DNA of 63,876 nt, counting the filler, from Folioceros fuciformis (Eukaryota): the NCBI GenBank assembly GCA_049999805.1. It is 16 parts of 16 records of this genome, joined end to end, with 100 filler letters (N's around TTAATTAATTAA, not from the genome) between each part and the next. Parts side by side here need not be neighbours in the genome. Positions count along the whole stretch, not along the records: positions 59,275 to 63,876 come from JBNGIO010006631.1; 15 more parts are not named here. One strand, given 5' to 3'. Each line of letters begins with the position of its first letter. The first letter of the stretch is position 1. Both the position numbers and the translations under genes were made by a program. The notes beneath the pieces were generated by a model. The model was not told the DNA's origin and did not search any database. It saw only the letters and a program-made list of their open reading frames with translations. This document shows positions 35,840 to 63,876 of this stretch, piece by piece.

Positions 35840-35990
35840 TTAGCTTATATAATGGGATGCATTGGAGTTAAAAATATTTATATTGAATCAATTAATATTT
35901 GATATTGTTTGAGTACAGAGTCTTACTACTACTATATATGCTTGTGATTTGTAGAAGTAAAGCAAAGAATTTATAGTAACGTGCTACAAA

Positions 35991-37244
35991 ATGAGACCTC
36001 GTAAGGAAAAGGATCCTTGGCAGTACATTGTTCAATGTGGCTACCTTGTAATTGAAATGAAAGGTGAAGGAACTTTTGGAAAAGTTTGTTCTGCCAAAGA
36101 TGTGAAAAGAAGGAAAGATGTGGCTGTAAAAAAAGTTACATGTAAAAATCAGAGGAGAACATCAATGCTTTATATTTTACGAGAGATAGCATTACTCAAA
36201 GTATTGCATCATCCAAGTATTATTAAATTAGAGACAATTATATGTTCACCAAGGAAAAGGTTACCTGACATTTATATAGTAACAGAATTAATGGAACATG
36301 ATCTCTATGAAGAGCTGCGAAACACTCAAGAGTTTCCTATTCAAAAACAAAAAAATTTACTCTACCAAATACTTCAGGGCGTGGCTTATTTGCATGCAGC
36401 AAATGTCTTACACCAAGACTTAAAGCCATCGAATTTATTGGTGAATTCTCAAGGTGAACTTAAAATTTGCGATTTTGGATTGGCTCGATTTCTTCCCGAA
36501 GGTTGTAATTCCATAGTGCAAAATCATCCATATAATATAGGAACTAGACCTTATTGTGCTCCGGAGCTTTGCACAAAGGAAAGTCCAAGATATTATACTC
36601 CAGCAATTGATATATGGAGTGTGGGATGTATATTTGCTGAAATCTTGCAAAGAGGGCTTTTGTTTGGAATGTCGAATAATAATGAGATGCAGTTACAGTT
36701 GATTAAAGATTTTCTCGGAGTTGAAAATACAACAACCCCAATGCCTGTAAAAGATGCTTTCGAACTACGATTCCCAAAGGCTGATCATGCTGCTATGTCC
36801 TTACTTAGACAACTGCTTGCCTTTCATCCTCAAGATAGAATAACAGCCGAGCAAGCTCTACAACATCCTTTTTTTCAAGATTTTGATCAAGTGTTTAGAT
36901 CTTATGTGGACAAAGACTTCATGAATAGGGAACTAGAGTTTGAAAATTTATCCACCGACGCATTGAAGAATTATTTTACTCGTAAAATGTCAGAACATGT
37001 TGGAATAAAAGACTCCAAACATGTACGCAAGAGGAAGATGAGGGACATTGAAATGCAAGAACGTGTCAAAAGAAGAAAGGTGGCACATATACCAAGTAGT
37101 AATTTACAATGTAATTATGAAAGTAGCATATCTAAGGATGATCCAAATGATCCAACTTACCAACCTTATAAAAAACCTAAAAACATGGGTATGAGGAAAA
37201 CGAAAGCTGGGAACTTGCGAAACGTTGTCAAAAGGAGATTATAG
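35991..37244 (+). CDS. Intronless MAPK-like (CMGC) Ser/Thr kinase, group D-derived, divergent
   Basis: 417 aa: GEGTFGKV, VAVKK, REIALL, HQDLKPSN, DFG, GTRPYCAPE, DIWSVGCIFAE, FPKADHAAMSLLRQLLAFHPQDRITAEQAL; basic C-tail. Confidence 0.88.
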   Translation: MRPRKEKDPWQYIVQCGYLVIEMKGEGTFGKVCSAKDVKRRKDVAVKKVTCKNQRRTSMLYILREIALLKVLHHPSIIKLETIICSPRKRLPDIYIVTELMEHDLYEELRNTQEFPIQKQKNLLYQILQGVAYLHAANVLHQDLKPSNLLVNSQGELKICDFGLARFLPEGCNSIVQNHPYNIGTRPYCAPELCTKESPRYYTPAIDIWSVGCIFAEILQRGLLFGMSNNNEMQLQLIKDFLGVENTTTPMPVKDAFELRFPKADHAAMSLLRQLLAFHPQDRITAEQALQHPFFQDFDQVFRSYVDKDFMNRELEFENLSTDALKNYFTRKMSEHVGIKDSKHVRKRKMRDIEMQERVKRRKVAHIPSSNLQCNYESSISKDDPNDPTYQPYKKPKNMGMRKTKAGNLRNVVKRRL

Positions 37245-59107: not shown

Positions 59108-59274
59108 TTTAGAGGTCTGATTTAGACCCCCTCTTAGGTGGGGTTAGGGTTAGGTCAGAGTTAGGGGCAGCTTANNNNNNNNNNNNNNNNNNNNNNNNNN
59201 NNNNNNNNNNNNNNNNNNTTAATTAATTAANNNNNNNNNNNNNNNNNNNNNNNNNNNNNNNNNNNNNNNNNNNN

Positions 59275-60177
59275 TCTTTTGGCGAAGGCCACTGCCCTGG
59301 CCCTGGCCAAGCACCCAGTGGTGAATGCAAGTTGCAAGGATGGTAAGAGCTTCACATACAACAGCAGCATTAATGTTGCCGTGGCTGTGGCCATGGATGG
59401 TGGCCTTCTGACGCCAGTGCTTCAGGATGCGGACAAGGTAACTTGAACTCAGTATTTGCTCCTGCCTGGTGGAGCACTTATCGAGGTACAAGTCTTTTGC
59501 TGCTCCCTTTGTAGCCTGAACGTTGGATGGGAAACAAATGCAGATCGATATCTATTCTCTGTCCCGCAAGTGGAAAGAGCTGGTGGACAAGGCCCGTGCT
59601 AAGCAGCTGCAGCCTTCAGAATACAACTCTGGTACCAGATTTGGCATGGCTTTAGCTCTCAAGTTTCCAGGGCATAGCCGTGACATCAAGCTGAAGCTGA
59701 CTGTGTTTGTGTCTTGGTCCGCAGGGACTTTCTTTCTGTCGAACCTGGGAATGTTTGGTGTGGACAGATTTGATGCTATTCTTCCGCCAGGGGCCGTAAG
59801 TACCTCCAACTGTGGCGCTCCCTACGTCACCGTGTTGCCATTGGTTGTAGCAGGATATGATAACCGGGCATGTCTGTTACAGGGTGCGATTATGGCCGTC
59901 GGCGCGTCTCGACCAACAGTGGTGGCAGCTCCTGGAGGCCTTTTCGGTGTAAAGAGCCAGATGCAGGTGATCGATCACAGGGCCCAAAACACTGCAAATG
60001 CATGTCCTCCAGAACTTGTTGCAAGCTTCCTACTGTTTTTGGGCGAGTTTACTCACTCTGAAGAGGTTGCAGGTGAACGTAACAGCAGACCACCGAATCA
60101 TCTACGGTGCCGATTTAGCAGCTTTCTTGCAAACATTGGCGGGCATCATTGAGGACCCCAAGGATCTGACTTTGTAG
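59275..60177 (+). CDS. LTA2: Plastid pyruvate dehydrogenase E2 (dihydrolipoyllysine acetyltransferase), 3' part
   Basis: Exons 59275-59437, 59544-59631, 59725-59795, 59883-59966 and 60073-60177 with GT-AG introns; GGLLTPVLQDADK, SNLGMFGVDRFDAILPPG, catalytic VTADHRIIYGAD. Confidence 0.92.
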
Positions 60178-60639
60178 AAAATATAGTGCCAGTCCTCACT
60201 CATTCAGTGCTATGTCCGGTTCTGTGGGAGCAACCGCGCCCCTGGCTGCCTCAGTGGGGCTGACAGACGGGGAAAGTTTTGCGTCACAATTTTTTGCACT
60301 CCATGTCGAGTGCCAGACACTATGTAGTGGAGAGTGTAGGCCTAAGAACCAGACAACTGTGATAACCGACGGTGAGATATAGCTGTCCTACATTCGGACT
60401 CGAGCCTGAATAAGAGGTAATTGTTTTCGTCAGAGTTGATGGAAATGAGAAACTTCAATGTCCAGATCCCGCAATCCTCCTCGTCAGAGTTCCTGGCCTC
60501 TACTTCAACAAAGAGATGAACGTCTCGTGCAGCCGGGTCGGGGAATTCGCCGTGTGTATGAAACAACAAAAGAATTCTTTCTGAAAGATGGGGAGATGGA
60601 AGAGGGCTCATTCAACATTGCTACTGGAGGTGAGCGATG

Positions 60640-60968
60640 ACCTGCAGTCGGAGGACTCGTCGGGGTCACCGTTCTACCCGGATCGCGTGGTGGCATTTCC
60701 TTCGTCCCCTACTTCTCCTGCTTCTCGGGAACGTATGGCCTTGTCGTAGAGGAGCCGCACGTGCGGGAGGCGCACCGGACGAAGGGCCTGGTCGCAGCGC
60801 TCCTGCGGCATCGTGGCAGGGCACGGTTTGGAATGGTGCGTTCTCCTCTGGAACGTGAATTCCGTCAATTTCTACCAGGTCATGCGTTTCCTCGAATGTG
60901 TTGCCTCAATTTCAGTGGCGCGTTGTGGGCTCACTCTTGAATGTCAACCTCAGGAACCCGCGGCGTGA
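60640..60968 (+). pseudogene. GNAT acetyltransferase remnant (NATA1/SSAT-like)
   Basis: FVPYFSCFSGTYGLVVEEPHVREAHRTKGLVAALL, then a frameshift into LEWCVLLWNVNSVNFYQVM, resembling SSAT/NATA motifs A and B; 5' boundary uncertain. Confidence 0.55.
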
Positions 60969-61188
60969 ATGCAACGCCGTTGTTGAGCTTACCGGTCACG
61001 CAAGAACGACCACCGAGAGTTAGTTCACCTTGGTAGAGCAAACCACTGAACCTCCTTGTTTTACTTGTCGTGGTCACACACCAGTGCCTCAATAGGTGAA
61101 GTATCAGACGAAGAAAGGCAGGATATGTCTTTCTTCTTCGTTTTTCTTGAGCGTTTTGTTTTTGTTGCCCCTCCCAAAGCACGTTCGG

Positions 61189-61325
61189 AAGGCGCTTGAC
61201 ATCACATAGCACGAAAGGTGCTTGGCATCACCTAGCAGGAAAGGCGCTTGGCATCACCTAGCAGGAAAGGTGCTTGGCATCACCTAGCAGGAAAGGTGCT
61301 TGACATCACCTAGCAGGAAAGGTGC
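61189..61325 (+). repeat. 26-bp minisatellite, ~5 copies
   Basis: aaaggtgcttggcatcacctagcagg units without spacers. Confidence 0.9.
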
Positions 61326-61771
61326 AAGAGCAAGCGCAGGAACACCTCTGGTTTGGGAACGGCCTGCTGAATGGGGGGCAAGCGAGTAATACTTCAGGTT
61401 TCTGTACAAGAAGTACATACATGCATATTGTATTGCTGGAACAAGGGCACGCTAACCGTCGACTAACGAGCAATCCTTCAGATACCTGTGCAAGAACTAT
61501 ATTCATATTGTCTTGCTTGAGAAAGGGCCGGCTGAATGCGGAAAAGCGAGCAATGGTTCAGGTTTCTCTGCAAGAACCAACCACATATCGTATCGTAGAT
61601 GAGGAATGGCATGCTGAATCTGAACAAGCCTCTAGTCCCTTCGGCCCTCTACTCTCTCCTTTTCGCTTCTCTCCACTATCTCTCCACATCCCCCTCCTCG
61701 TCGCCTTGTTTCCCATCTTCCTCCCTGCCTTCCGCCGCTCATGTCCTCTGTCGACTTCACCCCTGTTCCCT

Positions 61772-62376
61772 CTATCCGTCTCTCCCCTCGTTTCCTCCGC
61801 CTTCCTCCTCTCTGCCAACGTCACGCACTTCCTCACGATTCCGGCCCTGCGCTTCGCGGTGCCAGTAAGCCCCAGTCTCACTTCCCTGCCGGAGCACCTG
61901 GTCAGGCCCTTCAGGGGCCGGCCACAGCTGCAACAAGTAGCGATCGGGAGCGACGACTTCGTCGCCATCTGCAGTGTCCAACTCGTGCCCACGGTCCATC
62001 CCGCAGACCGAAAATCGAACCCGATGCCACCCGGCATGAGGAAGACAGTCCACGGCTTCTTCCCAGTTGAAGCCCCTGAGCGTGGTCTCGGTGGTGGGGA
62101 ACTCCTCAGAGGCTTCCACCACGTCCTCCTACTGGACGACTCTTCCGGGGGCTCTTCCGGCAGCCAAAGCACGCGAACAGGGACAGGTCCCGTGTGCAAC
62201 CCTGTGACCAGCCACACCTGGTGCGGCACCCGGGTGCCGCACAAGCCGTTTGCCTGCCCTGCTCTGGTGGCGATCCAGTCTACGTTCTCATGCCCTTTCG
62301 CCACCAGAGAGAAGAAGCTATACTGCACCCCAATGACGCTGTCGAAGAGCGTCCTCACCGGCTCTGCCGCCATCAC
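61772..62376 (-). pseudogene. Bacterial (actinobacterial)-like hypothetical protein, split by frameshift and stop
   Basis: AGQANGLCG..TGLHTGPVPVRV..EEPP [shift, TAG] EDVVEAS..HRVRF..GMD..PDRYLLQLWPAP..VLRQGSETGAYWH; GC-rich and intronless. Confidence 0.62.
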
Positions 62377-62911
62377 ACCAGGCTATTTCCTTGCCTCGCA
62401 CATCTAGAAATGTCCAACAGTCGTGCAAACCTGAGTTGCCTGCCGCACCGTTCTGACTATTGGCAAGGAGGAGCTCCTTGCCAATTTTGCACTGTGGTTG
62501 GGATAATGTCCCTGGTAAGAATTTGAACTCGTCATCCCAGCGCCATACGTACCCCACCGACTTGCTTTAAACTAGATAGTTCCGCTTGCACAGTCCTTGC
62601 CACCCAACCACAAAACTATGCTTGCCTGCAATCTCTTTGCCTGGTCCCACATCTGGGTATTGGTATCTACGTTCGACATCAAAACAAATGCTGTAGCAGA
62701 TTCATCATATATTTCGAGGCTTGGTCGAAAGCAGGAAGTCCCTCCTCCCTCCACATTGCTCCACTTTTAATAAGCAGCTAGGCAAGTGCGCCAGAGTAAG
62801 GGAGATGGCTGGAGAGGCGTTGTCGTACCCCAAGCTAGGGCTTCACGTACTTCTCCTGCACAGCCCTGAAGATCCACTCTGCATGTACAGTGGTTGTCAG
62901 CGGGAGCGATG

Positions 62912-63760
62912 TCATGTTTGTCTTCTCATAAACAAAGTATTCCTAGCGTTCACTGGACCCGCATAACTGCGCACTGTTAAAACACTGAGGAATGTGATCC
63001 CATCTGCGGTAATGTCGTTCTCTCGCTTGCTCCGAAGTGAGTCAAAGACCGCTTCCCTGTCTCCTCGAAAGGTATAGCCGGCAACGAATGCATTCCACGG
63101 AACGATGTCTGCCGCTTGCAAAGCCGCAAACACCTGGTGACACTGCATTTACCATGTCCCCACAGATTGAGTACATATTTCACCAAAGCTTCTTCACGAA
63201 GTGCATGTAAACACGTACTCTAACTTTATCGAAATGTCTCCATCTCTATACTCTTCCAAGCTGCCACACTTTGCATTGCACATATGTTCACCAAACTGCT
63301 GGCCACAAACACATGAGCTTGATGTCCTTGTTCTTTCATTTGGGCATGAAGCTGCTTCCCCGTCTTCCAAAGCTGGGGTGCACGCACTTGCACATGCCTA
63401 CAGGACAGACACAAATGTCACTGAATCTGGTATAGCCACACCGTCTTCAGGCATTGCCCTTTACAGATGAAGGGCTTCTTGGCCTTTACCCTGCTGCGAA
63501 TATCCTGATATCAGGGCATTCCAAGCCACCACATCCTTCTTACCAAGACCGTCAACAACAGTTTGAGTATCTTGCAAGCTGCCACACTTCGTGTAATTTT
63601 TCACCAAACTGCTGCCTACAAAAGAATCAGCTTGATGTCCTTGTTCCCTAATCTGAACAGGGGTGCCCATACCTTCCACATGCTTGCACACCAGCATGCT
63701 CCTGCTGCCCCGTTGTCAAGTCTGACCCCTGCGCAAGCCTTTGCAGAAATTAGGCAGTCC
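62912..63760 (-). pseudogene. PLS-class pentatricopeptide repeat (PPR) gene remnant
   Basis: FVGSSLV..YTKCGSLQD, DVVAWNALISGYSQQGKGQEAL, DIVPWNA, DGITFLSVL spread over several frames. Confidence 0.82.
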
Positions 63761-63876
63761 ACGTGAAGGCATTCGGATTGGCCACCCCTGCGAACACATA
63801 CACCGCGTCTTGCAACCGCTGCGGCCGCTGTGGTTCCAGGCACCACTGTCCCGTTTACCGCCATGCAAGGGGCTGT

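What the first reader, a model, noticed from the sequence alone, without database searches (positions are those of the whole stretch)
61772..62376. Actinobacterial-like gene embedded among plant genes (candidate horizontal transfer)
Seen: an intronless, visibly GC-rich coding region on a gap-free contig with the intron-containing plastid E2 gene and PPR remnants, which argues against simple contamination. Joining two frames gives motifs (GQANGLCG, TGLHTGPV, (W)EDVVEAS, RVRF..GMD, DRYLLQLWPAP, VLRQ.SE..AYWH) that I recognise from uncharacterised actinobacterial proteins; this is recall, not a search result. A 1-nt shift plus a probable TGG>TAG near 62130 suggests decay or a defective paralogue.
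Basis: partly seen in the sequence, partly recalled or inferred. Interest (0 to 1): 0.72.

Follow-up and report, generated by a model that had tools for sequence, protein, structure and literature searches.

The report
Broken actinobacterial gene inside plant-type genome
A plant-type (streptophyte) nuclear contig carries one small gene whose only known relatives are in soil Actinomycetota; it is now broken but still turns up in RNA, so it is a credible, fairly ordinary relic of bacterium-to-plant gene transfer.

Summary

Contamination is unlikely. Contigs from two studies span both junctions with no differences. One run behaves as RNA: it splices four GT..AG introns of the neighbouring plastid-type E2 gene. 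It also covers 61273-63142 continuously, both lesions included.

Best reading: a single-gene transfer from an actinobacterium into a streptophyte nuclear genome, now a transcribed pseudogene. Conserved columns are kept as well as in bacterial members, so the breakage looks recent. The whole genome could not be searched for intact paralogues. New member of a known kind; moderate interest.

The parts
62149..62373 (-). N-terminal half of the ComJ-fold gene (family residues 1-74), from ATG 62373-62371. An in-frame stop lies just upstream at 62383-62385.
   Evidence: tblastn frame -1, 45-56% identity to five homologues; E 1.2e-15; ORF limit at 62382.
62140..62165 (-). Zone of the frame change (-1/+2) between the two halves, at a gtcgtc run. 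It falls in the variable linker before the WEDVVE motif.
   Evidence: Comparison of the frames with alignment A1. The exact base cannot be fixed.
62129..62131 (-). In-frame TAG at the position of the family's nearly invariant Trp (W76 of P0006).
   Evidence: Present unchanged in the contigs of X1, X2 and X3 (tables 3 and 4 empty).
61838..62128 (-). C-terminal half of the gene (family residues 77-175).
   Evidence: E 3.3e-26, 58-60% identity; frame -3.
61772..61837 (-). Read-on tail (Arg/Glu/Gly-rich) beyond the usual end of the family, closed by TAG at 61774-61772. It runs into a GA-rich low-complexity tract.
   Evidence: alignment columns 190-212 are filled only by the window row.
61273..63142 (-). 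Stretch covered without a break by one 1870-nt contig of the RNA-type run X1. It is probably the last exon of a minus-strand spliced RNA. The strand is inferred.
   Evidence: table 8, record 2: 0 other letters, 0 gaps.
63143..63218 (-). Inferred 76-nt intron of the minus-strand RNA (GT..AG on the minus strand, donor GTACGT).
   Evidence: table 5: joint 63142>63219, CT..AC, X1 only, side 30 letters. Sequence read.
63397..63671 (-). Inferred 275-nt intron of the minus-strand RNA.
   Evidence: table 5: joint 63396>63672, CT..AC, X1 only, side 27 letters. This is weak support.
62912..63715 (-). PPR-repeat remnants: broken frames with internal direct repeats spaced 313-318 nt.
   Evidence: PF01535 E 2.7e-6 for 63461-63715; the other two fragments gave no hit; families D3 and D4.
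59275..60893 (+). 3' part of a plastid-type pyruvate-dehydrogenase E2 gene. Five exons and four GT..AG introns, stop codon at 60175, RNA contig ends at 60893.
   Evidence: four joints; 169-aa spliced frame; 2-oxoacid_dh; best matches are plant chloroplastic E2 proteins.
63767..63876 (+). A further E2 exon (…VVPGTTVPFTAMQGA) at the window's end. In the runs it is followed, after 206 letters, by 59275 onward.
   Evidence: (open frame), table 5 (joint 63876>59275 in X1, X2 and X3).
61189..61325 (.). 26-nt tandem repeat (5.3 copies) between the two convergent transcription units. Contigs of all runs break here.
   Evidence: table 8.

Best explanation
One bacterial gene of about 0.55 kb, and nothing else from the donor, was integrated into the nuclear genome of a streptophyte (a plant or a close algal relative). 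The donor was an actinobacterium of the Nocardioides/Intrasporangiaceae-like part of the family tree. The gene belongs to an uncurated Actinomycetota family of ~170-175 aa proteins. Their predicted fold is that of ComJ, the inhibitor of the Bacillus NucA DNase, and of CgnJ. The most likely ancestral role is therefore binding and blocking a partner protein such as a nuclease. This role is inferred from fold only.

In the host the copy is now a pseudogene, with one frame change and one Trp-to-stop change. It lies about 0.9 kb downstream of a plastid-type E2 gene, in convergent orientation. It is still present in RNA, probably as part of the long last exon of a minus-strand spliced transcript that starts in PPR-gene remnants. 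There it would sit far behind earlier stop codons and would not be translated.

Shown: the bacterial affinity, the two lesions, the physical linkage to host genes in two studies, and the presence in RNA-type contigs. Inferred: the direction and donor group of the transfer, the strand and exon structure of the RNA, the ancestral function, and that the breakage is recent.
For: (1) Homology. The C piece has 28 homologues among 37 scored candidates, best E 3.3e-26. The N piece has 191 representative clusters at E<=1e-3. Two colinear segments cover family residues 1-175.

(2) Bacterial range. All 80 listed genome loci, of 302 found, are Actinomycetota. The 80 metagenome loci have median GC 0.69. 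The Atlas clusters are 'Bacteria 100%'.

(3) Tree of 105 rows. The window row lies inside a 27-row clade (SH-aLRT 92) of Nocardioides, Promicromonospora, Pedococcus, Phycicoccus and metagenome rows. The nearest row is P0013, 57% identical over 167 columns.

(4) Only the gene is bacterial. Nucleotide similarity to the 80 loci is confined to 61851-62259, and no neighbour-gene remnant scored below E 0.009.

(5) Linkage. Contigs of X2 and X3 (2025) and of X1 (2017, another study) span both junctions with 0 differences.

(6) X1 behaves as RNA. It skips four GT..AG introns of E2, and the depth of 67.4 in the bin 59429-59582 equals exon-only cover at 216.4. Its 1870-nt contig covers 61273-63142.

(7) Host-side signs. 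GC3 is 0.74. The host E2 CDS has 0.60 and the bacterial median is 0.895. The tail has read on past the family's end.

(8) Constraint pattern. The window copy keeps 16 of 18 columns that are >=90% conserved and 43 of 50 that are >=75% conserved; bacterial rows keep 0.89 of the latter on average.

Against: - The tree is a quick search. No starred branch holds the window row, and its end branch is long (0.81 against a median of 0.17), so the donor group is approximate.
- No relative above 57% identity was found, so the donor is unsampled or the transfer is old.
- A GC3 of 0.74 lies inside the bacterial range of 0.68-0.98, so amelioration is not proven.
- Most homologues are unnamed metagenome proteins whose origin I infer only from GC content.
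- The run X1 is labelled 'RNA?' as a guess. Contigs cannot show strand, ends or a single molecule. The two minus-strand joints rest on sides of 30 and 27 letters.
- X2 and X3 may be the source of the assembly, so only X1 is independent.
- Function. No Pfam ComJ match at E<=1. No NucA/NucB-type nuclease among the 166 neighbouring ORFs scanned. A shared fold does not show a shared function.
Confidence: 0.8

Rival explanations
1. This broken copy is a dead paralogue. An intact, expressed copy of the same transferred gene exists elsewhere in this genome or in close relatives, and it works there as a host protein.
For: The window copy keeps the conserved columns as well as bacterial members do. It has only two lesions in about 530 bp despite 43% protein divergence from the nearest relative. 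This fits a period of purifying selection in the host. GC3 is intermediate between donor-type and host values.
Against: No protein above 60% identity appeared in the 5.8-billion-cluster search, a collection that includes Logan assemblies of public runs. None appeared among 1.84 billion representatives. A metagenome scan with the window's own peptides found none. No variant contig appeared in three runs. The same conservation pattern also fits a recent transfer from an unsampled donor.
Confidence: 0.15
2. Assembly artefact: DNA of a contaminating actinobacterium was joined to host DNA by the assembler.
For: Cultures and field samples of algae and bryophytes usually carry bacteria. The gene is a 63% GC islet. 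The scaffold is stitched from many small contigs.
Against: Both junctions are bridged with 0 differences in contigs assembled per run from two studies eight years apart. One of these runs is RNA-like, with the host gene spliced. The gene is broken. Its GC3 is below that of 9 of the 10 close-clade genes measured. Only 0.4 kb shows any nucleotide similarity to bacterial loci.
Confidence: 0.03
3. The locus still makes a working product. This could be the N-terminal half alone (the -1 frame stays open for 274 codons, 61558-62382), a read-through or frameshifted protein, or a regulatory RNA.
For: RNA-type contigs cover it. The frame after the shift stays open for a long way.
Against: The ComJ-like fold is a single domain built from both halves. 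Long open off-frames are usual in GC-rich genes. The start codon lies about 770 nt into an exon behind other frames and stops. No variant RNA was seen.
Confidence: 0.05
4. Vertical inheritance: an old eukaryotic or plastid-derived gene that was lost almost everywhere else.
For: None beyond the fact that many unnamed metagenome homologues cannot be assigned to a taxon.
Against: Every named relative is from Actinomycetota. There is no cyanobacterial or eukaryotic hit. The window row nests inside actinobacterial diversity. The gene has no introns, whereas its neighbour has four in 0.8 kb.
Confidence: 0.02

Closest known systems
ComJ of Bacillus subtilis (PDB 4mqd; Pfam PF11033), inhibitor of the competence DNase NucA/ComI
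   Different: 9-13% identity. No hit to PF11033 at E<=1. No profile hit to PDB sequences below E 0.8. No adjacent nuclease gene in 166 neighbouring ORFs. It has its own motifs (GQxNGLCG, TGLHTG, WEDVVE, DRYLLQLWPA) and an extra C-terminal helix. It is restricted to Actinomycetota.
CgnJ of the crocagin gene cluster (PDB 6i86)
   Different: CgnJ lies in a myxobacterial peptide-natural-product cluster. The family here has no conserved gene context. What CgnJ does is not known to me. My only source is the PDB title; a paper search for 'CgnJ' gave nothing useful.
Imm-ComJ immunity proteins of polymorphic toxin systems (Zhang et al. 2012, PMC3482391; passages read)
   Same: That paper treats ComJ homologues as immunity proteins against Tox-ComI nucleases. 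Its table lists 'Eukaryotes: viridiplantae' in their range. It also states that toxin and immunity domains were repeatedly transferred to eukaryotes.
   Different: Their range for Imm-ComJ has no Actinobacteria. Their signature (W, F[DE], PF, Y, Y) is not the motif set seen here. No toxin partner was found for this family.
Known bacterium-to-streptophyte gene transfers (GRAS and PYL from soil bacteria; TAL-type transaldolase from actinobacteria), as reviewed in PMC12448838 (passages read)
   Same: Soil-bacterial donor and streptophyte recipient, nuclear integration, relaxed selection after transfer.
   Different: Those genes are intact, expanded, intron-bearing and functionally important. This one is a single, intronless, broken copy of unknown use, seen so far in one organism.

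Membership tests
Uncurated Actinomycetota family of ~170-175 aa proteins (e.g. P0006, P0029 of Aeromicrobium tamlense) | Colinear alignment over the whole length with significant scores | tested here: met
   Two segments cover residues 1-74 and 77-175. E 3.3e-26 and E 1.2e-15.
Uncurated Actinomycetota family of ~170-175 aa proteins (e.g. P0006, P0029 of Aeromicrobium tamlense) | Conserved motif columns (GQxNGLxG, TGLHTG, WEDVVE, RxR, DRYLLQLWPA, YWH) | tested here: met
   16 of 18 columns conserved at >=90% are kept. The two losses are Trp>stop and Ala>Gly (alignment).
Uncurated Actinomycetota family of ~170-175 aa proteins (e.g. P0006, P0029 of Aeromicrobium tamlense) | One uninterrupted reading frame | tested here: not met
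   One frame change and one in-frame TAG. Both are present in DNA and RNA-type contigs. It is a pseudogene of the family, not a working member.
ComJ / Imm-ComJ (Pfam PF11033) | Match to the family's sequence profile | tested here: not met
   No Pfam family at E<=1 for the window pieces or for six full-length homologues. No NCBIfam match.
ComJ / Imm-ComJ (Pfam PF11033) | ComJ fold | tested here: met
ComJ / Imm-ComJ (Pfam PF11033) | Gene next to a NucA/ComI-type nuclease or toxin gene | tested here: not met
   42 ORFs from 14 loci and 124 of the 155 nearest-neighbour ORFs were scanned. No NucA/NucB-type domain was found and the contexts vary. One weak HNH hit in L015 is below its cut-off.
ComJ / Imm-ComJ (Pfam PF11033) | Binds and inhibits a DNase | not testable with these tools
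   Needs biochemistry with an intact bacterial homologue.
Horizontally acquired nuclear gene of bacterial origin | Nested within donor-group diversity in a tree | tested here: met
   Inside a 27-row actinobacterial clade with SH-aLRT 92. This was a quick search, no starred branch holds the row, and its branch is long. The tree is unrooted.
Horizontally acquired nuclear gene of bacterial origin | Physical linkage to undoubted host genes, in data independent of the assembly | tested here: met
   X1 (another study) has a contig over 61273-63142 with 0 differences. The same run splices the adjacent E2 gene.
Horizontally acquired nuclear gene of bacterial origin | Absence from other eukaryotes | tested here: inconclusive
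   No eukaryotic hit. However, pseudogenes are not in protein collections, and no plant or algal genome collection could be searched.

The most novel reading that the evidence does not exclude
A streptophyte captured a bacterial ComJ-type 'antidote' gene from soil Actinomycetota and kept it under selection for a time as a shield against bacterial nuclease toxins. The broken, still-transcribed copy seen here would be the relic of that episode, or a dead duplicate of it. Intact copies may survive elsewhere in this genome or in related algae or bryophytes. That would be a eukaryote borrowing a bacterial immunity protein rather than a toxin or an enzyme.
Probability: 0.12. Interest if true: 0.7.

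Novelty: new member of a known kind. Interest (0 to 1): 0.4.

Why it matters
Gene transfer from soil bacteria into streptophyte algae and early land plants is an active topic, and the known cases are intact, useful genes. A well-anchored dead case shows the other side: foreign genes that arrive, are transcribed and then decay. That helps estimate how often transfer happens against how often it sticks.

The work also defines a sizeable Actinomycetota protein family with at least 302 genome loci. It is missing from Pfam and NCBIfam, has a ComJ-like fold and often carries a second helical domain. Neither point is a major surprise.

Tried and rejected
- Whole-genome search for paralogues: no genome is held for this window.
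- Pfam and NCBIfam on the pieces and on full-length homologues: no family.
- Profile search of PDB sequences: nothing below E 0.8.
It was repeated with 12 rows.
- Metagenome scan with the window's own peptides: 312 pattern matches, none a relative. The scan with the family alignment gave 160 relatives. The closest to the window is 57% identical, on a 0.71-GC contig.
- Donor-neighbour remnants in the flanks: none; every tblastn hit had E>=0.009.
- Target-site or inverted repeats around the gene: none.
- Lineage from an intronless kinase-like ORF (35961-37244): only about 40% identity to plant MAPKs, so uninformative.
- Lineage from one 53-aa E2 exon: the best full-length match is 96%, to a protein labelled jgi/Mesen1 (a zygnematophyte record). 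Liverwort proteins reach 93-95% over 77% of the exon. I therefore say only 'streptophyte'.
- The look-up of sequencing runs: no RNA holder listed. That X1 is RNA is my inference from its spliced contig.
- X1 has no cover at 60969-61122, and X7 has no cover at all. Neither is used as evidence.
- Organisms B and C of the same study hold next to none of the sampled words. This is no evidence of absence.
- C-terminal helical domain of the two-domain bacterial forms: modelled at pLDDT 92.7. Foldseek found only ComJ/CgnJ for the N-terminal domain and nothing clear for the C-terminal domain.
- Literature: searches 'ComJ+NucA+inhibitor', 'ComJ+horizontal', 'CgnJ', and two on streptophyte gene transfer found no report of this family or of a ComJ-like gene in a plant. 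The one exception is a table row in PMC3482391.
- Earlier notes of this scan: nothing relevant.

Full report
**What is there.** On the minus strand between 62373 and 61838 lies a complete, colinear copy of a small bacterial protein. It is read in two frames. The first frame starts at ATG 62373 and gives MAAEPVRTLFDSVIGVQYSFF...GQANGLCG...TGLHTGPVPVRVLWLPEEPPEE. The second frame gives (stop)EDVVEASEEF...WHRVRFSVCGMDRGHELD...APDRYLLQLWPAPEGPDQVLRQGSETGAYWH.

tblastn with five homologues finds exactly two segments. Family residues 1-74 lie at 62358-62149 and residues 77-175 at 62128-61838. There is no other copy in the window. The TAG at 62129-62131 stands where the family has a nearly invariant Trp. 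The frame change lies a few codons upstream, at a gtcgtc run in a variable linker. Behind the family's usual end the frame reads on for about 22 codons to a TAG at 61774-61772.

**The window.** This is a eukaryote. It holds many Copia- and Gypsy-type polyprotein frames and a plastid-type E2 gene with short GT..AG introns. It is not gap-free: 33 N runs were counted, most of them 44N+TTAATTAATTAA+44N linkers. The last 4.6 kb (59275-63876) has no N. It carries the E2 exons, the bacterial-type gene and a PPR remnant.

One 53-aa E2 exon is 96% identical to a protein from a zygnematophyte record. It is 93-95% identical to liverwort proteins over part of its length, and many hits are named chloroplastic E2. 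I call the host a streptophyte and go no further.

**The family.** The C piece finds 28 proteins among 37 scored candidates, the best at E 3.3e-26 and 58-60% identity. They are about 175 aa long and mostly come from metagenomes; one is from Aeromicrobium tamlense. The N piece finds 191 representative clusters. One of these, P0032, is a repeat-protein false positive.

Neither Pfam nor NCBIfam has a model for the family. In one genome per species, 302 loci encode a relative. All 80 that were listed are Actinomycetota. The 80 best metagenome loci have a median GC of 0.69. Of 63 loci where I could call the gene, 14 encode 200 aa or fewer and 44 encode 368 aa or more. The longer forms carry a helical second domain and are mostly from Streptomyces.

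Gene context is not conserved. The Nocardioides copies sit between pyrH and tsf. The Pedococcus and Phycicoccus copies sit before dnaK-grpE. No NucA/NucB-type nuclease is adjacent in any of the 166 ORFs scanned.

**Fold.** A model of the close homologue P0006 is very confident, with pLDDT 96.7 and pTM 0.92. It matches only two solved structures:
- ComJ of Bacillus subtilis, whose PDB title calls it an inhibitor of the DNA-degrading activity of NucA.
- CgnJ of the crocagin cluster.

Sequence profiles do not connect the families. I therefore say the family has a ComJ-like fold and may work like ComJ. I do not say it is a member of Pfam ComJ. Zhang et al. 2012 (passages read) treat ComJ homologues as immunity proteins against ComI-type nuclease toxins. 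Their table lists Viridiplantae in the range but no Actinobacteria.

**Transfer or artefact?** In a tree of 105 rows the window row falls inside a 27-row clade (SH-aLRT 92). The rows were 80 genome loci, 24 of the 28 database proteins and the window read through with X at the break. Four database fragments under 150 aa were left out. The clade holds Nocardioides, Promicromonospora, Pedococcus, Phycicoccus and metagenome rows. The window row has a long end branch and no starred support.

Nucleotide similarity to bacterial loci is limited to 61851-62259. No remnant of donor neighbour genes is present.

Public runs settle the linkage. Contigs of X2 and X3 bridge both junctions. So does a 1870-nt contig of X1, from a different study eight years earlier, which covers 61273-63142 with no difference. 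X1 is labelled RNA only as a guess, but it skips four GT..AG introns of E2. The bin depth there equals exon-only cover (216.4 x 48/154 = 67.4). It therefore behaves as clean RNA.

Two further X1 joints read CT..AC, which is GT..AG on the minus strand (63142>63219 and 63396>63672). They suggest a spliced minus-strand RNA from the PPR remnants whose long last exon contains the bacterial-type gene. Their sides are short (30 and 27 letters), and contigs cannot prove strand or a single molecule. No run shows an alternative letter or indel at the lesions (tables 3 and 4).

**History.** The copy keeps 16 of 18 columns conserved at >=90%, 43 of 50 at >=75% and 76 of 100 at >=50%. This is about the same as an average bacterial member. 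Its divergence is therefore that of a protein under selection, and the two lesions are late events.

GC3 is 0.74. The host E2 has 0.60. Close-clade genes are mostly near 0.95 but range from 0.69 to 0.98. This is compatible with partial adjustment to the host but does not prove it.

I cannot tell a recent arrival from an unsampled donor apart from an older, once-useful host gene.

**Verdict.** This is a single-gene transfer from Actinomycetota into a streptophyte, now a transcribed pseudogene of an uncurated ComJ-fold family. Such transfers are a known kind (review PMC12448838, passages read). No paper on this family or on such a gene in plants was found. Interest is moderate.

Noticed in passing
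window 63767-63876 and 59275-59348; also 62604: In X1, X2 and X3 a contig joins 63876, after 206 letters, back to 59275. The end of the window encodes an E2 exon (…VVPGTTVPFTAMQGA) that precedes the exon at 59275 in the mRNA. Other contigs branch off at 62604 and 59348. This suggests a direct repeat of about 1.5 kb (PPR remnants plus E2 exons) on both sides of the E2 3' part and the bacterial-type gene, or a tandem duplication or a permuted contig.
   Followed up: partly
window, 33 N runs (e.g. 59175-59274): Most gaps are 44 N + TTAATTAATTAA + 44 N, a six-frame-stop linker, and a few are plain 100-N gaps. The record is therefore a chain of small contigs, and neighbourhood across a linker (for example Copia element | E2) should not be trusted.
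   Followed up: partly
window 35961-37244 (+): An intronless, AT-rich (GC3 0.29) 427-codon frame between retrotransposons has a complete protein-kinase domain. It is only about 40% identical to plant MAP kinases and no close relative exists in the protein collection. It may be a retrocopy or a transposon-carried gene.
   Followed up: partly
L001, L005, L008, L011, L012 (Nocardioides); L002, L003, L004 (Pedococcus, Phycicoccus and an uncultured Actinomycetota bin): In Nocardioides the family gene lies beside tsf, and in L001, L005 and L008 between pyrH and tsf, inside the otherwise conserved rpsB-tsf-pyrH-cdsA cluster. In the second group it lies directly upstream of dnaK (with grpE after dnaK in L002 and L004). 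These are odd housekeeping addresses for a putative immunity-type gene.
   Followed up: partly
P0039 and 27 similar proteins (alignment A4); Atlas rows 5-6: Most Streptomyces-type members carry a confident all-helical C-terminal domain of about 200 aa with no clear PDB match. Other clusters fuse the ComJ-like domain to DUF6461 or DUF6042 proteins of about 650 aa.
   Followed up: partly
window 63279-63432: Depth spikes (94-262) appear in both DNA and RNA-type runs, with non-canonical 'joints'. This piece of the PPR remnant is a multi-copy sequence in the genome.
   Followed up: no
window 61418-61577 and 61189-61325: Two minisatellites lie in the 3' flank of the bacterial-type gene: two diverged 80-nt units, and 5.3 copies of a 26-nt unit at which contigs of all runs break.
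   Followed up: no
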